From Escherichia virus TH40: 64,000 nt of DNA. The translations under genes and the position numbers were made by a program. Where the stretch lies: sequence record MT446411.1; one strand, given 5' to 3'. Below, one piece after another: positions 43,856 to 51,367 of the stretch; the stretch's first letter is position 1; the number at the start of each line of letters is the position of its first letter. The notes under the pieces are model-generated. The model did no database searches, was not told where the DNA came from, and was given only the letters and a program-made list of their open reading frames with translations.

Positions 43856-44866
43856 TTATTTTGAAAAAGGACGAATTAAATGTTGGTTAGCCTTGAAACG
43901 TTTAACATAGTCTTCGCGACCCAGGGTGTTGTACATATTCACTACTTCCTGGTAATGTTCCCAGGCATACTCACGAAACCATCCAGAAGTAATGGAGGTG
44001 CAGACTTTTTCCAGAGCAATATGGAAGCTCACGGATGGAGAGATACTAAACTCGTTAGGAACCTGCGAACGCTCCAGAGCGAGCACACATGCTTCTTCAT
44101 AAACCCCTGCCAGTTTAATAACATCAGGGAGTGCTTCAAATTTTTCACGCGAGGTCATGACTTCCGAATCATCCTTCATATAGAACTTATATGCAGGCTT
44201 ATCAGCAAGCGCCACGGCCTCGTGGATGGAGTCATGGTCAAGGGTATAGATTGTATCATTAAAGAAAGTTTTCTTGCCCACGTCTAGTTTAGGGTGGCTA
44301 TATGACAGTGTTTCTGCCTGACGTTGTAACATAATTTTCTGCAGTTCATCATTAAGAACAACACCCTTATTACGAAGGTAATTAATATGGCTCATGGTCT
44401 TCAGGAAGAATGGATTGTTCTTCAGGTAACGATGAGACAATTTAATTGCCAGACAAATATCAGGGGTCGCCCAATAGAAACCTGTAAGACGGTCTTTCTT
44501 AATATGATTTTCAGCGTATTTCAAGAGACGATAACTTGAGGTGAAATCTTCATCTTGAAGCTCACCAGTAATTTCTCGTACGTTGGTCAGGGCACGGACA
44601 ATATAAGCTTCAAAATAGGTTTCTTTGCCATTGTACATACATTTAAAAGCTTGGACATCAGGGTTATCCACAGGAACATGAGCACCGAACATACGTGCTT
44701 TAAAGTGGTTCCATGAGCCCTGGTCAGCGATGAAGTCCCAATCAGAGTTTTCAATTTTCTGACTTTCAATCAGACCAGCGTTATGTAATGCACGAGAACC
44801 AATAACTAACATCATAATATTTTCCTCAGATAACTTAAATTTCAGCAGCAGAGATATTAGATTCAT
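43856..44866 (-). CDS. Hypothetical protein (336 aa), possible nucleotidyltransferase-like N-terminus
   Basis: ORF track; N-terminal VIGSRALHNAGL..SDWDF loosely fits the NTase GS..D.D pattern. Confidence 0.5.
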   Translation of the reverse strand: MNLISLLLKFKLSEENIMMLVIGSRALHNAGLIESQKIENSDWDFIADQGSWNHFKARMFGAHVPVDNPDVQAFKCMYNGKETYFEAYIVRALTNVREITGELQDEDFTSSYRLLKYAENHIKKDRLTGFYWATPDICLAIKLSHRYLKNNPFFLKTMSHINYLRNKGVVLNDELQKIMLQRQAETLSYSHPKLDVGKKTFFNDTIYTLDHDSIHEAVALADKPAYKFYMKDDSEVMTSREKFEALPDVIKLAGVYEEACVLALERSQVPNEFSISPSVSFHIALEKVCTSITSGWFREYAWEHYQEVVNMYNTLGREDYVKRFKANQHLIRPFSK

Positions 44867-45065
44867 CTATCATCTCGGAGGCGGACCCCTTAACGATAGG
44901 AACCAATTTGCCATAGAGGTCTTCATTATAAGGGTCGTTGATACAGTGCGCATCTTCAAAACGAACACCGTAATCAGACTTCTTATAAACGAGACCGTAA
45001 ATCTTTGTAAACTTAGCGCGACTAATTTTTACGGGCTCATCAGCCATTGGAGCATAATACCACAT
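44835..45065 (-). CDS. Hypothetical protein (76 aa)
   Basis: ORF track; type-A leader upstream. Confidence 0.4.
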   Translation of the reverse strand: MWYYAPMADEPVKISRAKFTKIYGLVYKKSDYGVRFEDAHCINDPYNEDLYGKLVPIVKGSASEMIDESNISAAEI

Positions 45066-45168: not shown

Positions 45169-45396
45169 TTATTTTCCTAACGAAATACGAGTAGGTTTTT
45201 TACCGAAATATTCTTCATAGGAACCATCTAAACGGCCCGCTTTAGACCGACAGTACGAATCATACTTTTTGTAATAAGTCAACTCTGTATTGTAACGTGG
45301 ATGTCTATCAGCCATAATAATACTTAACGGCCAACCTTTGGCGTAATCACGAAGACCATTTATTTTACGAATATATCTTTTCTTTAATTTTAACAT
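45169..45396 (-). CDS. Hypothetical basic protein (75 aa)
   Basis: ORF track. Confidence 0.4.
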   Translation of the reverse strand: MLKLKKRYIRKINGLRDYAKGWPLSIIMADRHPRYNTELTYYKKYDSYCRSKAGRLDGSYEEYFGKKPTRISLGK

Positions 45397-45614
45397 GAGC
45401 TCGGATACCAGATTTTACCATCCGGGTGAGCAACAAAGGTGCGTCCAGCTTCTTCACCATAACAAGAGCTATTCAACCAGTCTTCAAGACGAACTTCACC
45501 ATCATAATCGTCGAGCTCAATACCGAAATCTTGGGCAGAAGCCATATCTTTAACTTTCTTATACAGCGCAGCCAGTTCAAGAGCTGCTTTTTCTAATTCA
45601 TTAATATCAGACAT
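45390..45614 (-). CDS. Small protein, member of W-x-S-S-x-x-C C-terminal family (ends WYPSSC)
   Basis: 74 aa; C-terminal motif shared with the three following ORFs. Confidence 0.45.
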   Translation of the reverse strand: MSDINELEKAALELAALYKKVKDMASAQDFGIELDDYDGEVRLEDWLNSSCYGEEAGRTFVAHPDGKIWYPSSC

Positions 45615-45623
45615 TTTTATTCC

Positions 45624-45821
45624 TTAGCATTCGTAAGAGGAGGACACCCAAGAGGTACCACTAATAGTAATACAACCGTTATAAAGCGTGATATGTCGTT
45701 CTAGGTCACGAACACCGTCGATATAGATATCAGCTTCTTCTCGTTCTTCTTTACAAATCTGGATAACGTTTTCAATAGCTGCGGCTGCAGTACGGATTGC
45801 ACAATCTAATTCACGAGACAT
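45624..45821 (-). CDS. Small protein, W-V-S-S-S-x-E-C C-terminal family
   Basis: 65 aa; ends SWVSSSYEC; 3' nucleotide block conserved with neighbours. Confidence 0.5.
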   Translation of the reverse strand: MSRELDCAIRTAAAAIENVIQICKEEREEADIYIDGVRDLERHITLYNGCITISGTSWVSSSYEC

Positions 45822-45830
45822 AATAATTCC

Positions 45831-46112
45831 TTAACATTCAGAAGAGGAGGACACCCAACCACCTTTTTCCAGGTCAGTTGTATAGTCATGTTGGTTAACG
45901 ATAGCGTATTGGGCTTCACCGTAGTTTTCCCAATGAGCAAGGTCAGCTTTCAGGGCGCCAGGAGAATAATAGTCACCGCCCATACCGCGAGCAGGGTATA
46001 TATTAAAATGAGTCTCATATTTGTTTGCAATTTCCTCGGCACGACGAATAGCTTTATGGATATCATTTACTGCGTTGGCCAGTTCTTTATTTTTACTGTA
46101 ATCGTTCATCAT
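45831..46112 (-). CDS. Small protein, W-V-S-S-S-x-E-C C-terminal family
   Basis: 93 aa; ends GWVSSSSEC. Confidence 0.5.
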   Translation of the reverse strand: MMNDYSKNKELANAVNDIHKAIRRAEEIANKYETHFNIYPARGMGGDYYSPGALKADLAHWENYGEAQYAIVNQHDYTTDLEKGGWVSSSSEC

Positions 46113-46121
46113 ACCATTTCC

Positions 46122-46412
46122 TTAACACATCTCAGAAGAGGAGACCCAAGCACCAACGGTAACAACACCATTTTCAACCCGACCGCCATTGGCTTCAATA
46201 TGATGGGTAAACCATTCAGAGCATTCATAACCAACTGGATGATATGTACGGCCGGTGCCGTAATCACCAGTGCTGAATTCGATACCATATTCATCTGCGA
46301 TTTCTTCACAGTGTTTTTCAATTTCAGAGGTCTTATTTAGAAGAGAATAGATAGCTTTTTCTGCAGATTTCTCATCATAATACTTGGGGATAGCAATTTC
46401 AATTTTATTCAT
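46122..46412 (-). CDS. Small protein, W-V-S-S-S-x-E-C C-terminal family
   Basis: 96 aa; ends AWVSSSEMC. Confidence 0.5.
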   Translation of the reverse strand: MNKIEIAIPKYYDEKSAEKAIYSLLNKTSEIEKHCEEIADEYGIEFSTGDYGTGRTYHPVGYECSEWFTHHIEANGGRVENGVVTVGAWVSSSEMC

Positions 46413-46762
46413 GATTTACATTCCTTAATAAAGGTTTCAAGGTCATTACGTTTTGTTTTGTCTAGGAACTTATTATACTCAGCCATTGCTGAAGCATATC
46501 TCTTATATATGGGAGCATTCAAGGCGTTTGTATAACAGATATCATACACAACCGGGATAAAATAGGCCACAACAGCCGGAGCAATTATCATAAAGAAGCC
46601 CATCTCAATAGGCATGACTCCCTCGATTGCAGCCATAACCGTGGTCATTACCAGACCAACCAGACCACCGAGCATGGCAGTGACAATCCCTAATAATAAA
46701 TTGGCACCAATATCATATTCAGCCAATTGATAAACATGTGATGCAAGACTAGGCCGTTCCAT
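46409..46762 (-). CDS. Hypothetical membrane protein (start at internal Met with AAGGAGG SD)
   Basis: ORF track gives 46409..46855; strong SD before MERPSLASH; ends ..ETFIKECKS. Confidence 0.45.
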   Translation of the reverse strand: MERPSLASHVYQLAEYDIGANLLLGIVTAMLGGLVGLVMTTVMAAIEGVMPIEMGFFMIIAPAVVAYFIPVVYDICYTNALNAPIYKRYASAMAEYNKFLDKTKRNDLETFIKECKS

Positions 46763-47108
46763 TACGAACCTCCTTAATAAATTCTTCGGCACATTTAATT
46801 TTGTGCTCTTCTTGTAGGGAAACACATTTTTGTTCCCACTCTTTAACTCGTCCACGATATCCTTTATTCATATGATTTTGATGCCACACATTTATCAATA
46901 TCATACACAAGACCGTAATAAAAGGAGCGGCGATTATTAGTGCCCAGGCAACTCCAACACTAATGATATCCATATCCCCACAAAGCACCATCATTATAAC
47001 CCCAACAATGCATATAGACAGAGCCCCAAATGGAGGCATAAGGTCTTTATCAATTTTGTCTGCGTATACAAATTTTTCTGGTTTACTTGGTAGATATAGC
47101 GTTCGCAT
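46749..47108 (-). CDS. Hypothetical membrane protein (start at internal Met)
   Basis: ORF track gives 46749..47282; SD before MRTLYLPSK; ends ..EEFIKEVRNGTA. Confidence 0.4.
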   Translation of the reverse strand: MRTLYLPSKPEKFVYADKIDKDLMPPFGALSICIVGVIMMVLCGDMDIISVGVAWALIIAAPFITVLCMILINVWHQNHMNKGYRGRVKEWEQKCVSLQEEHKIKCAEEFIKEVRNGTA

Positions 47109-47655
47109 TTTGAGCCCCTTTAGCATATTCACGACATTCAGTAATAAAACGATTAAGCTTCCGTTGTTGTTTACGACTCTCTGATGTGTATTCAGCCGCC
47201 AAATCAAGAAGTTCAGCTTTATCATAATTTTTAATATCAGCATAAGCTGGACGACGGTCAACCATTCCAAAGTGGTCACCATTTTCTAACATCAAATAAC
47301 ATACCAAATGGTCATCATCATCCGCATCAATAAGTCGTTTATAATCGCTTGGGTCGTTTAATGCATACACTGAATAACGTAGTCCAGCGAATTCCACTCG
47401 TTGGATACCCAGATTTACGTCAATAATTTCCAAGGCATCTGCAAAAGAAAGGTCTTCAGCTAAAGCAAAAATAAAAGGCAATTTTGTAGTATCACCACGG
47501 CTAGTTGTTCTTCTTAAGAAATCATTGGAATAACCTAGGTCACCACGGATTCTATAAAGAACTGTATTAGTTTCAGTGGCAAGACCACTACCGCCAAACC
47601 ATTCTACATTTGATATAAGATTATCGTATGAAGTCATAATATTCTCCTCTCCCAA
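47083..47655 (-). CDS. Hypothetical protein (190 aa)
   Basis: ORF track; contains ..NRFITECREY.. near C-terminus. Confidence 0.45.
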   Translation of the reverse strand: MGEENIMTSYDNLISNVEWFGGSGLATETNTVLYRIRGDLGYSNDFLRRTTSRGDTTKLPFIFALAEDLSFADALEIIDVNLGIQRVEFAGLRYSVYALNDPSDYKRLIDADDDDHLVCYLMLENGDHFGMVDRRPAYADIKNYDKAELLDLAAEYTSESRKQQRKLNRFITECREYAKGAQNANAISTK

Positions 47656-47681
47656 TTAAGGGGGCAAAGCCCCCTTTTATC

Positions 47682-48275
47682 TTACTTAAGTGAATTGATG
47701 TATTCTTCAATGTCAGCGGATGTGGTATCCACACCGACCTGCGGGCCTTTGAAGGTTTCAACACGCATCAGAGTGTCTTCAATATCAATCTTAGTCAATG
47801 CAGCGATTTCAACAACATCATCTGCAGTCGCAATACCCAGGGCAGATACCTTACGAGTTTCGCGGATGTATTCCAGTTTAACAGCTAGTTCCTGACGAGA
47901 ATCATCCAGCTCTTTAACTTTCAATTTAATTTCATTACGCATTTCAACATAATCATCTGCCTTCTTACGAAGTTGTTTAGCAGTGCGACGATACAGAAGA
48001 CCCAGTTTAGCATGGACTTGCACATCTGCTCCATCAGCAATCAGTTTACGGATTTCACGCTCTTTTGAAGCAGCGAGCTGGTCTTTTTCATTCGCTAACT
48101 CGCGGATGCGTTTTTCTTCATTAACAGACTTAACGTGGGCAGTCTGGAGCTCAGTAATCTTGTCAATCAGGGTAGAAGCCGCTTTGGTATACTGGTCTTC
48201 AATAGACAGGTTTTGTGCCATTGCAGTACCCAGTTTGGAGCGGATGAATTCAACAAGTTTCTTTAAAGTATTCAT
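47682..48275 (-). CDS. Hypothetical coiled-coil protein (197 aa)
   Basis: ORF track; heptad-rich, charged. Confidence 0.45.
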
Positions 48276-51084: not shown

Positions 51085-51160
51085 TGGTCGAGACAGTAGG
51101 AATCGAACCTACGACCCAGGACTTAGAAGGTCCTTGCTCTTCCTTCTGAGCTATGCCTCG
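51085..51160 (-). tRNA. tRNA-Arg (anticodon UCU)
   Basis: Manual fold of reverse complement: 7-bp acceptor CGAGGCA/UGUCUCG, anticodon loop CUUCUAA, T-loop UUCGAUU, encoded CCA. Confidence 0.7.
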
Positions 51161-51293
51161 TGCTTGTTCATAGCGGGGTGGACTCGAACCACCAATATTA
51201 AGTCACTCATGCTCCAAGCATGCAGGGCACTTACCCCGGACGGAATCGAACCGCATCTACAATACCTATCGCCATGATAATTTAAAATAAGTT
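51161..51293 (-). ncRNA. tRNA-like structured RNA candidate (two T-arm-like hairpins, no canonical cloverleaf)
   Basis: GGUUCGAUUCC and GGUGGUUCGAGUCCACC T-arm-like elements between two tRNAs; could not be folded into a standard tRNA by hand. Confidence 0.3.
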
Positions 51294-51367
51294 TGGTGGC
51301 CCTGGGTGGAATCGAACCACCATCCAGCGATTATGAGTCGCTCGCTTGACCGTCCAGCTACAGGGCC
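51294..51367 (-). tRNA. tRNA with CAU anticodon (Met or lysidine-type Ile)
   Basis: Manual fold: acceptor GGCCCUG/CAGGGCC, anticodon stem-loop AGCGA-CUCAUAA-UCGCU, T-loop UUCGAUU, encoded CCA. Confidence 0.7.

What the first reader, a model, noticed from the sequence alone, without database searches (positions are those of the whole stretch)
45390..46412. Tandem family of four small proteins sharing a C-terminal W-x-S-S-x-x-C tail and a conserved 3' nucleotide block
Four consecutive ORFs end in WYPSSC, SWVSSSYEC, GWVSSSSEC and AWVSSSEMC. The underlying DNA (ttaacaTTCxGAAGAGGAGGACACCCAA on the forward strand) is nearly identical at three of the gene ends, while the N-terminal parts differ. The pyrimidine-rich coding block UCCUCCUCUUC lies directly beside the next gene's ribosome-binding site. 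That points either to recent duplication or gene conversion, or to a sequence with a second role at the RNA level.
Basis: seen in the sequence. Interest (0 to 1): 0.6.

Follow-up and report, generated by a model that had tools for sequence, protein, structure and literature searches.

The report
Cysteine-tailed small proteins partnered with nucleotidyltransferase
The four small genes are old members of a very large, unnamed phage protein family that ends in G-W-x-S-S-x-x-Cys, and in the phage loci examined that family nearly always lies just upstream of one uncharacterised nucleotidyltransferase gene, which points to an unstudied two-part phage system rather than an RNA signal.

Summary
In detail: four minus-strand ORFs (45390-46412) end in WYPSSC, WVSSSYEC, WVSSSSEC and WVSSSEMC. 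In the 64 kb window no other stop-to-stop frame carries this ending.

The conservation acts on the protein, not the RNA.
- In other genera the same residues use freely varying Ser codons (TCN and AGY).
- The four junctions fold no better than shuffles, RNAalifold finds no pairs, and Rfam finds nothing.
- The paralogue types keep type-specific tails across genera, so the duplication is old.

The family has 959 clusters at 50% identity. Of 138 new representatives, 133 end exactly in G-W-x-[SPA]-S-S-x-x-C. It has no Pfam, NCBIfam or PDB relative.

My inference is that the exposed tail is the docking or acceptor element for this enzyme.

The shared DNA block is tail codons, then a stop overlapping the Shine-Dalgarno site, then ATG.

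The parts
46122..46412 (-). g4, type-A family member (96 aa, pI 4.75), tail AWVSSSEMC
   Evidence: ORF; PHROG 899 E 1e-22; orthologues in 488 phage records by tblastn at E<=10, which includes weak hits
45831..46112 (-). g3, type-B family member (93 aa), tail GWVSSSSEC, core motif PARGMGGDYY
   Evidence: PHROG 899 E 2e-20. AF2 pLDDT 91.3: helix 9-32, hairpin 35-49, helices, strand 84-88 (GGWVS); the last 3 residues have pLDDT about 53
45624..45821 (-). g2, type-D family member (65 aa), tail SWVSSSYEC
   Evidence: PHROG 4882 E 2e-36
45390..45614 (-). g1, type-C family member (74 aa) with the motif twice: internal DWLNSSC (45462-45479) and terminal IWYPSSC (45393-45410)
   Evidence: PHROG 899 E 6e-10. 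The double motif is conserved in L003, L005, L006, L008, L009, L040 and L066
45609..45651 (.). Junction block g2/g1: tail codons, TAA overlapping the Shine-Dalgarno site GGAA, spacer, ATG TCT
   Evidence: Direct repeat family D1; indel breakpoints of relatives fall here
45816..45858 (.). Junction block g3/g2 (86% identical to the g2/g1 block)
46107..46149 (.). Junction block g4/g3 (63% identical)
43856..44815 (-). Partner gene: 319-aa DUF7277+DUF7275 protein, a pol-beta-type nucleotidyltransferase with a MenT/AbiEii-like fold. Invariant G6 S7, D25 x D27, E69, plus a very conserved helical C-terminal domain
44835..45065 (-). Intervening 76-aa ORF (PHROG 3723, unknown function) between the array and the NTase gene
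   Evidence: it is present in Mosigvirus ST0 but not in all genera, so it is probably not a core part
45169..45396 (-). Intervening 75-aa ORF (PHROG 7065, unknown function); its ATG overlaps the end of g1

Best explanation
Shown. The four ORFs are old paralogues of one large, phage-restricted family of small acidic alpha/beta proteins. The family hallmark is a protein-level C-terminal signature, G-W-x-[S/P/A]-S-S-x(0-2)-Cys-COOH. The family is a near-obligate genomic partner of the gene that follows it, a DUF7277+DUF7275 nucleotidyltransferase with a MenT/AbiEii-like fold.

Inferred. The Trp and the first Ser close the small beta-sheet. The last residues are flexible and present the invariant Ser-Ser and terminal Cys to the enzyme. 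I commit to this reading: the tail is a common docking and acceptor peptide. Through it one enzyme recognises several differently built small proteins, and it most likely transfers a nucleotidyl or phosphoryl group to the invariant Ser. The bodies of the small proteins then act on different host or phage targets.

The nucleotide similarity at the gene ends has three causes: the shared motif, the compact stop/Shine-Dalgarno/ATG junction, and short-tract recombination between these junctions. That recombination also drives gain and loss of whole cassettes in the array.
For: Selection acts on the protein:
- 86 distinct tails from 28 sources use all six Ser codons. Outside the Dhaka/Gapriver clade the UCCUCCUCU block is absent.

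Family size and terminal position:
- 959 clusters at 50% identity reach E<=1e-3.
- 133 of 138 new representatives end exactly in W-x-[SPA]-S-S-x-x-C.

Linkage to the enzyme:
- All 27 first loci and 60 of 63 further IMG/VR loci found through the NTase carry 1-5 tail ORFs.
- All of these are on the same strand, and 127 of 138 lie within 2 kb upstream of the NTase gene. The opposite strand has 0 of 4122 frames with the tail.
- In reverse, 30 of 32 loci found through the small-protein motif carry the NTase 0.2-2 kb downstream. The other two are truncated contigs.

Enzyme identity:
- The NTase motifs G-S, D-x-D and E are invariant.

Tail exposure:
- In g3 the strand 84-88 is confidently modelled, and the last three residues have pLDDT about 53.

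Several paralogues per genome (1-7) share one tail on different bodies, and type C carries the motif twice. This fits several substrates sharing one tag.

Precedent: NTases of the DUF1814 group act on a protein serine. AbiEii auto-phosphorylates on antitoxin binding (bioRxiv 10.64898/2026.01.19.700257), and toxin phosphorylation neutralises Rv1045 (PMC7205606, abstract).

The phiR1-RT homologues g126-g128 are not toxic alone (relative CFU 0.94, 0.69, 1.08; supplement of PMC6893735).

Junction recombination: indel breakpoints lie exactly in the junction block.
Against: No direct evidence exists of a physical or chemical interaction. I could not model the complex.

Synteny alone can reflect co-regulation or common descent, and many loci are phylogenetically related, so the counts are not independent events.

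The W and the Ser-Ser are predicted to be part of, or right next to, the folded core. Their invariance could therefore be structural.

In type C the first motif is internal, so a free C-terminus is not always needed.

A few loci have the NTase and no recognisable tail ORF (L038, L088, L097; L070 has too little upstream sequence to judge).

Other ORFs, and in phAPEC8 an annotated terminator, lie between the array and the NTase gene.
Confidence: 0.5

Rival explanations
1. Antitoxin-like regulators. The small proteins are not substrates. They are partners that bind a MenT/AbiEii-like toxin NTase and switch it off, for example by inducing auto-phosphorylation of its own G-S serine, as in type VII toxin-antitoxin systems. 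The phage would use the enzyme against host tRNA and the partners to time or limit it.
Confidence: 0.2
2. The tail has a function of its own that is independent of the NTase: metal or redox chemistry, oligomer assembly through the terminal Cys, or binding of a host protein. The synteny would only reflect a shared early-gene cassette.
For: The W-x-S-S residues are within or right next to the folded core. The proteins are acidic, pI 4.3-5.2, like many phage inhibitors of host proteins. Other ORFs separate the array from the NTase gene.
Against: Linkage holds in both directions across very different phage groups whose flanking genes are otherwise unrelated: T4-like phages, Otagovirus, Phapecoctavirus, jumbo phages and uncultured contigs. 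Distant NTase homologues that lack this family sit next to a different small family instead of standing alone.
Confidence: 0.2
3. An RNA-level element. The pyrimidine block UCCUCCUCUUC pairs with the next gene's Shine-Dalgarno site or otherwise acts in the mRNA, for example in translational coupling or masking.
For: UCCU can pair with AGGA of UAAGGAA about 10-14 nt downstream, and the MFE folds of g2 and g3 draw such a 4-bp helix. The block is shared by three junctions in this clade.
Against: The folds are no better than shuffles: z -0.1, +1.05, +0.82, -1.2. RNAalifold predicts 0 pairs on 12 junctions. Rfam has no relevant match. Other genera encode the same tail with TCA, AGT or AGC codons and lack the block. 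Synonymous variants occur within the clade. g1 has the motif without the block.
Confidence: 0.04
4. Recent tandem duplication or gene conversion is the whole explanation for the shared gene ends.
For: The 43-nt junction repeat is 86% identical between g2/g1 and g3/g2. The rare TCC-TCC-TCT codons are shared by g2 and g3 in this clade only. Cassette indels break in the repeat.
Against: The paralogues are only 28-32% identical. Each type has orthologues with a type-specific tail in many genera. The motif is kept in about 959 clusters with unrelated codons. Conversion may homogenise a few codons locally, but it cannot explain the motif.
Confidence: 0.06

Closest known systems
MenT/MenA and AbiEii/AbiEi nucleotidyltransferase toxin-antitoxin systems (DUF1814 NTases)
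   Different: There is no sequence membership: Pfam finds only DUF7277 and DUF7275. The system is phage-encoded and essentially absent from bacterial genomes (2 MAG hits). The partner is an unrelated small fold with a Cys-terminal tail, not an AbiEi/MenA protein. Each enzyme has 1-7 partners. Toxicity and tRNA activity are untested.
HEPN-MNT type VII toxin-antitoxin systems (an NTase that poly-AMPylates its partner)
   Same: The concept is the same: a minimal NTase whose substrate is the protein encoded next to it, modified on a hydroxyl side chain.
   Different: The partner here has no HEPN fold or Rx4-6H motif. The enzyme is 319 aa with a large conserved helical domain. Modification is only inferred here.
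RlaP (PF10127) RNA-ligase-associated pol-beta NTases of phages (PMC7824862, PMC12776372)
   Same: It is a phage-borne pol-beta NTase. Distant DUF7275 homologues lie near RNA ligase and tRNA genes.
   Different: It is a different Pfam family. No RNA ligase lies next to the window's gene. RlaP has no described Cys-tailed partners.
PHROG 899 / PHROG 4882 (phage orthologous groups, function unknown)
   Same: The four ORFs are members by HMM score.
   Different: PHROGs gives both groups no function. The tail motif, the unity of the two groups and the link to the NTase are worked out here. I found no paper that describes them.
C-terminal Cys peptides of AviCys lanthipeptides (S-x-x-C-COOH)
   Same: A Ser two or three residues before a strictly C-terminal Cys (comparison from my own knowledge).
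   Different: The proteins here are folded 65-100-aa domains (pLDDT 91), not leader-core peptides. The Ser-Cys spacing varies from 0 to 3. No dehydratase or HFCD decarboxylase was found among the neighbours scanned.

Membership tests
PHROG 899 / 4882 small phage proteins | Significant match to the family HMM | tested here: met
   g1 6e-10, g3 2e-20 and g4 1e-22 to PHROG 899; g2 2e-36 to PHROG 4882
Cys-tailed family as delimited here | N-terminal helix, beta-hairpin ([FL]xF..YG.GG.Y) and a C-terminal G-W-x-[SPA]-S-S-x(0-2)-C at the very end of the protein | tested here: met
   Alignments A4 and A5. 133 of 138 new representatives end exactly in the motif. All four window ORFs carry it. g2 lacks the YG.GG hairpin motif.
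Cys-tailed family as delimited here | Location upstream of, and on the same strand as, a DUF7277+DUF7275 gene | tested here: met
   Window: the array at 45390-46412 lies 575 nt upstream of the NTase gene start at 44815. Elsewhere the linkage holds in 87 of 90 loci, and in 30 of 30 informative loci in the reverse search.
MenT/AbiEii (DUF1814) NTase toxins | Pol-beta NTase fold with G-[GS], [DE]-x-[DE] and a third acidic residue | tested here: met
MenT/AbiEii (DUF1814) NTase toxins | Sequence membership in the DUF1814/AbiEii Pfam family | tested here: not met
   The Pfam scan at E<=0.1 returns only DUF7275 and DUF7277. NCBIfam returns nothing. PADLOC returns no NTase model.
MenT/AbiEii (DUF1814) NTase toxins | Cognate AbiEi/MenA-type antitoxin encoded upstream | tested here: not met
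MenT/AbiEii (DUF1814) NTase toxins | Growth inhibition through nucleotide addition to tRNA 3' ends | not testable with these tools
   This needs expression and tRNA sequencing. The NTase homologue g125 of phiR1-RT does not appear in the supplement of the published screen, whereas g126-g128 do.
RlaP (PF10127) NTases | Match to PF10127 and adjacency to an RNA ligase gene | tested here: not met
   No PF10127 match. No RNA ligase appears among the annotated neighbours of the close relative vB_EcoM_RZ. Adjacency is seen only for distant homologues.
HEPN-MNT type VII TA | Partner with a HEPN domain (Rx4-6H) | tested here: not met
Shine-Dalgarno-masking / translational-coupling RNA hairpins | A stable, conserved helix that includes the Shine-Dalgarno site, supported by covariation | tested here: not met
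   Fold z-scores -0.1 to +1.05, with g1 at -1.2. RNAalifold predicts 0 pairs. Rfam finds nothing relevant.
RiPP precursors with C-terminal Cys (AviCys type) | Short leader-core peptide with dehydratase and HFCD decarboxylase genes nearby | tested here: not met
   The domain is folded, pLDDT 91. The seven neighbouring ORFs scanned have no such Pfam or PHROG families.

The most novel reading that the evidence does not exclude
A phage-encoded protein-tagging system. One MenT-like nucleotidyltransferase covalently nucleotidylylates or phosphorylates the invariant Ser, or the terminal Cys, of a shared C-terminal tag carried by a set of up to seven different small effector proteins, and so switches them on or off during infection. 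An alternative is that the enzyme uses the tail hydroxyl as a protein primer for nucleotide addition. This would be a new class of viral post-translational modification with dedicated, genome-encoded substrates, present in the 731 sequenced phage genomes where the enzyme was found.
Probability: 0.25. Interest if true: 0.85.

Novelty: new variant of a known kind. Interest (0 to 1): 0.62.

Why it matters
T4-like phages such as RB69, JS98 and phiR1-RT are among the best-studied viruses. Even so, this module is annotated throughout as "hypothetical protein". The enzyme is found in 731 sequenced phage genomes and the small-protein family has about 959 clusters at 50% identity.

This work gives three things that can be acted on:
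- a sharp, testable sequence signature, G-W-x-S-S-x-x-Cys at the very C-terminus;
- a near-obligate enzyme partner with a fold known from tRNA-modifying toxins;
- a set of natural variants, from 1 to 7 partners, including one type with a double motif.

If the tail is a modification or docking tag, this is a new way for phages to control a battery of small effectors. It would also give a first function to two Pfam DUFs. If the proteins are antitoxin-like, it would be a phage-borne type VII-like system.

It also shows how a conserved protein tail plus a compact gene junction can act as a recombination site for cassette shuffling.

Tried and rejected
RNA-level role. I folded the four junctions, ran RNAalifold on 12 junctions and searched Rfam. 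All were negative.

Homology between this family and the other small family found next to distant DUF7275 NTases. hhalign gave probability 0.2%, so I rejected it.

Covariation of NTase Cys residues with the Cys tail. C243 is Tyr in many loci that still have partners. C272, H174 and R281 separate only two deep clades, so the signal is phylogenetically confounded. I did not use it as evidence.

RlaP membership. It is a different Pfam family.

Bacterial homologues for context. Only two MAG contigs were found.

Promoter and terminator scan. It was uninformative: 13 promoter-like sites against 15 expected.

Toxicity literature. The toxic phiR1-RT proteins Gp136 and Gp137 are transmembrane proteins outside this module. 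The homologues g126-g128 were not toxic.

T4 itself. The first 50 kb hold neither the NTase nor the tail motif. The rest was not checked. nrdC.3, of similar length, is unrelated.

Papers. Searches for DUF7275/DUF7277 and for C-terminal cysteine with nucleotidyltransferase found nothing on this module.

The afdb50 fold library was not available.
Full report
WHAT IS THERE. The window is a T4-type phage of the Dhakavirus/Gaprivervirus group; the best DNA match is 92% to Escherichia phage ECML-359. Between 45390 and 46412 the minus strand carries four tightly packed ORFs:
- g4, 46122-46412, 96 aa, ending ..GAWVSSSEMC.
- g3, 45831-46112, 93 aa, ending ..GGWVSSSSEC.
- g2, 45624-45821, 65 aa, ending ..TSWVSSSYEC.
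- g1, 45390-45614, 74 aa, ending ..KIWYPSSC.

g1 also holds an internal copy of the motif, DWLNSSC, directly followed by YGEEAG. Each stop codon overlaps the next Shine-Dalgarno site (UAAGGAA), and 7-9 nt later the next ATG follows. The repeat finder reports the junctions as one family of 43 nt with 100/86/63% identity.

IS IT MORE THAN CHANCE. In the whole window only these four of 668 stop-to-stop frames of at least 40 aa end in W-x-x-S-x(1-4)-C. In 63 independent related loci, 142 of 3109 frames on the gene strand carry the tail, against 0 of 4122 on the opposite strand.

PROTEIN OR RNA.
- Across 86 distinct tails from 28 sources, the Ser codons are TCT 107, TCC 53, TCA 32, AGT 30, AGC 28 and TCG 9. 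Outside the Dhaka/Gapriver clade the same residues are written as, for example, TCA TCT AGT, AGT AGC TCA or TCT TCA AGC. TCN and AGY codons cannot be exchanged by single synonymous steps, so selection acts on the amino acids.
- Within the clade, synonymous variants occur in the tails, for example GTA TCA TCC TCT for g2 in L016 and L017, and TCT/TCG/TCA for the third Ser of g4.
- The four junctions fold no better than dinucleotide shuffles, with z -0.10, +1.05, +0.82 and -1.21.
- RNAalifold on 12 junctions from five phages predicts no pair.
- Rfam finds nothing relevant.

The RNA-level reading is not supported.

OLD OR RECENT. The four proteins are only 28-32% identical, but they belong together: g1, g3 and g4 match PHROG 899 and g2 matches PHROG 4882. 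Each paralogue type has orthologues in other genera with a tail signature of its own:
- Type A (g4): ..W[VLI]SSS[EDAS][ML]C.
- Type B (g3): ..GWVSS[ST]xEC.
- Type D (g2): ..W[VQTA]SSS[YS]xC.
- Type C (g1): a double motif, with the terminal ..W-x-x-S-S-C lacking a spacer.
- Type E (..GFW[FY]xSSMxC): present in relatives but absent from the window.

The duplications therefore predate the divergence of Dhaka-, Mosig-, Karam-, Marfa- and Tegunaviruses, Aeromonas T4-like phages and Phapecoctaviruses.

There is still a real DNA-level phenomenon. In an alignment of the array from seven close relatives, the whole-gene differences have their breakpoints exactly in the junction block TG[CT] TAA GG(A/T)AATAAA ATG. 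The window lacks the type-E gene, and L013 lacks g2. g2 and g3 also share the otherwise uncommon TCC TCC TCT codons only in this clade. The junction is thus used as a short homology for unequal recombination, and probably for short-tract conversion.

HOW BIG IS THE FAMILY.
- A word-indexed search with g4 alone found six proteins.
- A search with an alignment of 18 members found 128.
- An exhaustive HMMER search of 1.84 billion representatives with a 62-sequence profile found 959 clusters at E<=1e-3 and 442 at E<=1e-10.
- Of 138 new representatives, 133 end exactly in G-W-x-[S/P/A]-S-S-x-x-C, with W, the two Ser and the Cys invariant. Four more have one extra residue.
- The core is an amphipathic helix (..AE.[IL]AD..), a hairpin [LF]xFxF-PAYGMGGTYY, a variable and often very acidic linker, and the tail.
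- Members occur in Myxococcus phage Mx1, Pseudomonas Otagoviruses, Acinetobacter and Aeromonas T4-like phages, Phapecoctaviruses and jumbo phages.
- None has a Pfam, NCBIfam, PADLOC or PDB relative.

STRUCTURE OF THE SMALL PROTEIN. AlphaFold2 on g3 gives pLDDT 91.3 and pTM 0.79. The model has:
- helix 9-32;
- hairpin 35-41 / 44-49;
- helices 51-63 and 71-74;
- strand 84-88, which is GGWVS.

THE NEIGHBOUR. In every distant phage locus first inspected, the small ORFs lie directly upstream of a protein of about 300-320 aa. In the window this is 43856-44815 (-), 319 aa, starting MMLVIGSRAL. It matches Pfam DUF7277 (5e-26) plus DUF7275 (2e-75) and PHROG 2141.
- It is strongly conserved: 44-73% identity between T4-like phages, Otagovirus and Phapecoctavirus. 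Invariant residues are G6 S7, D25, D27, E69, H128, H194 D195, H198, E240 E241, E248 R249 and others.
- AlphaFold2 gives pLDDT 89.9.

It is thus a pol-beta-type nucleotidyltransferase of the MenT/AbiEii structural kind, although not a sequence member of DUF1814. It has 2836 relatives in the protein collection and hits in 731 phage records. Only two hits occur in 185,579 bacterial and archaeal genomes, both in metagenome bins.

LINKAGE.
- All 27 loci held at that point carry 2-5 tail ORFs. Eighteen came from the NTase scan and nine from annotated phage records.
- Of 63 further IMG/VR loci found with an NTase profile, down to 39% identity, 60 carry 1-5 tail ORFs.
- All are on the same strand as the NTase gene. 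By distance from its start: 90 within 1 kb upstream, 37 at 1-2 kb, 8 at 2-3.7 kb, 1 further upstream and 2 downstream.
- In the reverse direction, 30 of 32 loci found through the peptide GMGG[TSD]Y.. carry the NTase 0.2-2 kb downstream. The other two are contigs that end within 350 nt.
- The loci are not phylogenetically independent. But their flanking genes differ completely between phage groups, so the pairing is not just conserved synteny of a larger block.
- More distant DUF7275 enzymes (28-39% identity; Streptomyces, Gordonia, KVP40-like Vibrio phages and DSS3_VP1) lack the Cys-tailed family. They sit next to another small family instead (GGEGxGE...F[KR]K.G.Y.S[YW].G), often near RNA ligase, tRNA clusters or NadV. 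The two partner families are not detectably homologous (hhalign probability 0.2%).

MECHANISM, SHOWN AND INFERRED.

Shown:
- The motif is conserved at the protein level.
- The motif sits at the very C-terminus.
- The small-protein fold is predicted with high confidence and has a flexible end.
- The family is tightly linked to an NTase whose catalytic motifs are intact.

Inferred: the tail is the element through which the enzyme and the small proteins work together. I favour a shared docking and acceptor tag for four reasons:
- Genomes keep several paralogues with different bodies and one tail.
- Type C has the motif twice.
- The invariant residues are nucleophiles (Ser, Ser, Cys).
- Pol-beta NTases transfer to hydroxyl groups, and the structurally closest enzymes are known to act on a protein serine. 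AbiEii auto-phosphorylates (bioRxiv 10.64898/2026.01.19.700257), and phosphorylation neutralises the Rv1045 toxin (PMC7205606).

Three homologues (phiR1-RT g126, g127, g128) were not toxic in E. coli, with relative CFU 0.94, 0.69 and 1.08 against a threshold of 0.4 (supplement of PMC6893735). This fits substrates or regulators rather than toxins.

The main rival is an antitoxin-like role, in which partner binding switches the enzyme off. I cannot exclude it. A role of the tail independent of the enzyme also remains possible, because the Trp and Ser residues lie within or next to the fold.

COMPARISON WITH KNOWN SYSTEMS. In how it works, the module is closest to the NTase-plus-partner modules MenAT, AbiE and HEPN-MNT. 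It fails their membership tests on sequence family and on partner type. It is not RlaP (PF10127; PMC7824862, PMC12776372). It does not fit a RiPP precursor, because the domain is folded, the spacing is variable and no tailoring enzymes were found among the neighbours scanned. I found no paper on DUF7275, DUF7277 or on this tail.

VERDICT. The RNA idea is rejected. "Recent duplication" is rejected, but junction recombination is supported. The larger finding is an uncharacterised, widespread phage module: a Cys-tailed small-protein family plus a MenT-like nucleotidyltransferase. I rate it a new variant of a known kind (an NTase with protein partners), with interest 0.62. The covalent-tagging reading has probability about 0.25 and would be of high interest if true.

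Noticed in passing
window 46409-47655 (-): ORFs 47083-47655, 46749-47282, 46409-46855: The three ORFs just upstream of the array share a different C-terminal motif, [DE]-x-F-[IV]-x-E-[CV]-[RK]..LNRFITECREYAKG....AEEFIKEVRNGTA and ..LETFIKECKS. The same F-I-x-x-C-R ending recurs on many neighbouring small or membrane ORFs in other T4-like phages (L002-L006). This is a second family with a conserved tail in the same region.
   Followed up: no
window about 45963-46034 (g3 codons 27-50, KYETHFNIYPARGMGGDYYSP): A run of about 24 codons shows no synonymous change in 8 distinct Dhaka/Gapriver relatives, although the flanks vary (alignment). It is more conserved at the DNA level than the tails. The cause is unknown: a recombination sweep or a nucleotide-level constraint.
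   Followed up: partly
L091-L095 (Streptomyces phage Blueeyedbeauty, Gordonia phage Culver, Vibrio phages K354 and V09, DSS3_VP1): Distant DUF7277+DUF7275 NTases (about 250-300 aa) lack Cys-tailed partners. They are flanked by another conserved family of about 100-155 aa (GGEGxGE..F[KR]K.G.Y.S[YW].G..[YW]D..EV.P) and lie near RNA ligase, phosphoesterase, tRNA clusters or NadV. This hints at an RNA-related role for the enzyme superfamily.
   Followed up: partly
window 43856-44866 (-): The mechanical ORF starts 17 codons upstream (MNLISLLLKFKLSEENI-MMLVIGS..). Homologues all begin at M(M/L)L(V/I)IGSRA, so the true start is most likely 44815. The 76-aa ORF 44835-45065 would otherwise overlap it.
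   Followed up: yes
window 47657-47679: A perfect GC-rich palindrome, AAGGGGGC-AAA-GCCCCCTT, lies between the 197-aa gene (47682-48275) and the 190-aa gene (47083-47655). It looks like a terminator or a stem-loop of the kind found at T4-type gene-cassette borders.
   Followed up: no
window 51085-51367 (-): tRNA-Arg(tct) and tRNA-Met(cat) genes lie about 5 kb upstream of the array on the same strand.
   Followed up: no
NTase residues 171-190 (window about 44246-44305): The only lower-confidence stretch of the NTase model (pLDDT 65-72) contains the conserved H174, P175, F184 and F185. It may be a mobile, functionally important loop.
   Followed up: no
L131 (phage T4, bases 1-50000): The first 50 kb of T4 hold neither the NTase nor any tail-motif ORF. 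nrdC.3, of similar length, is unrelated. The rest of T4 was not examined.
   Followed up: partly
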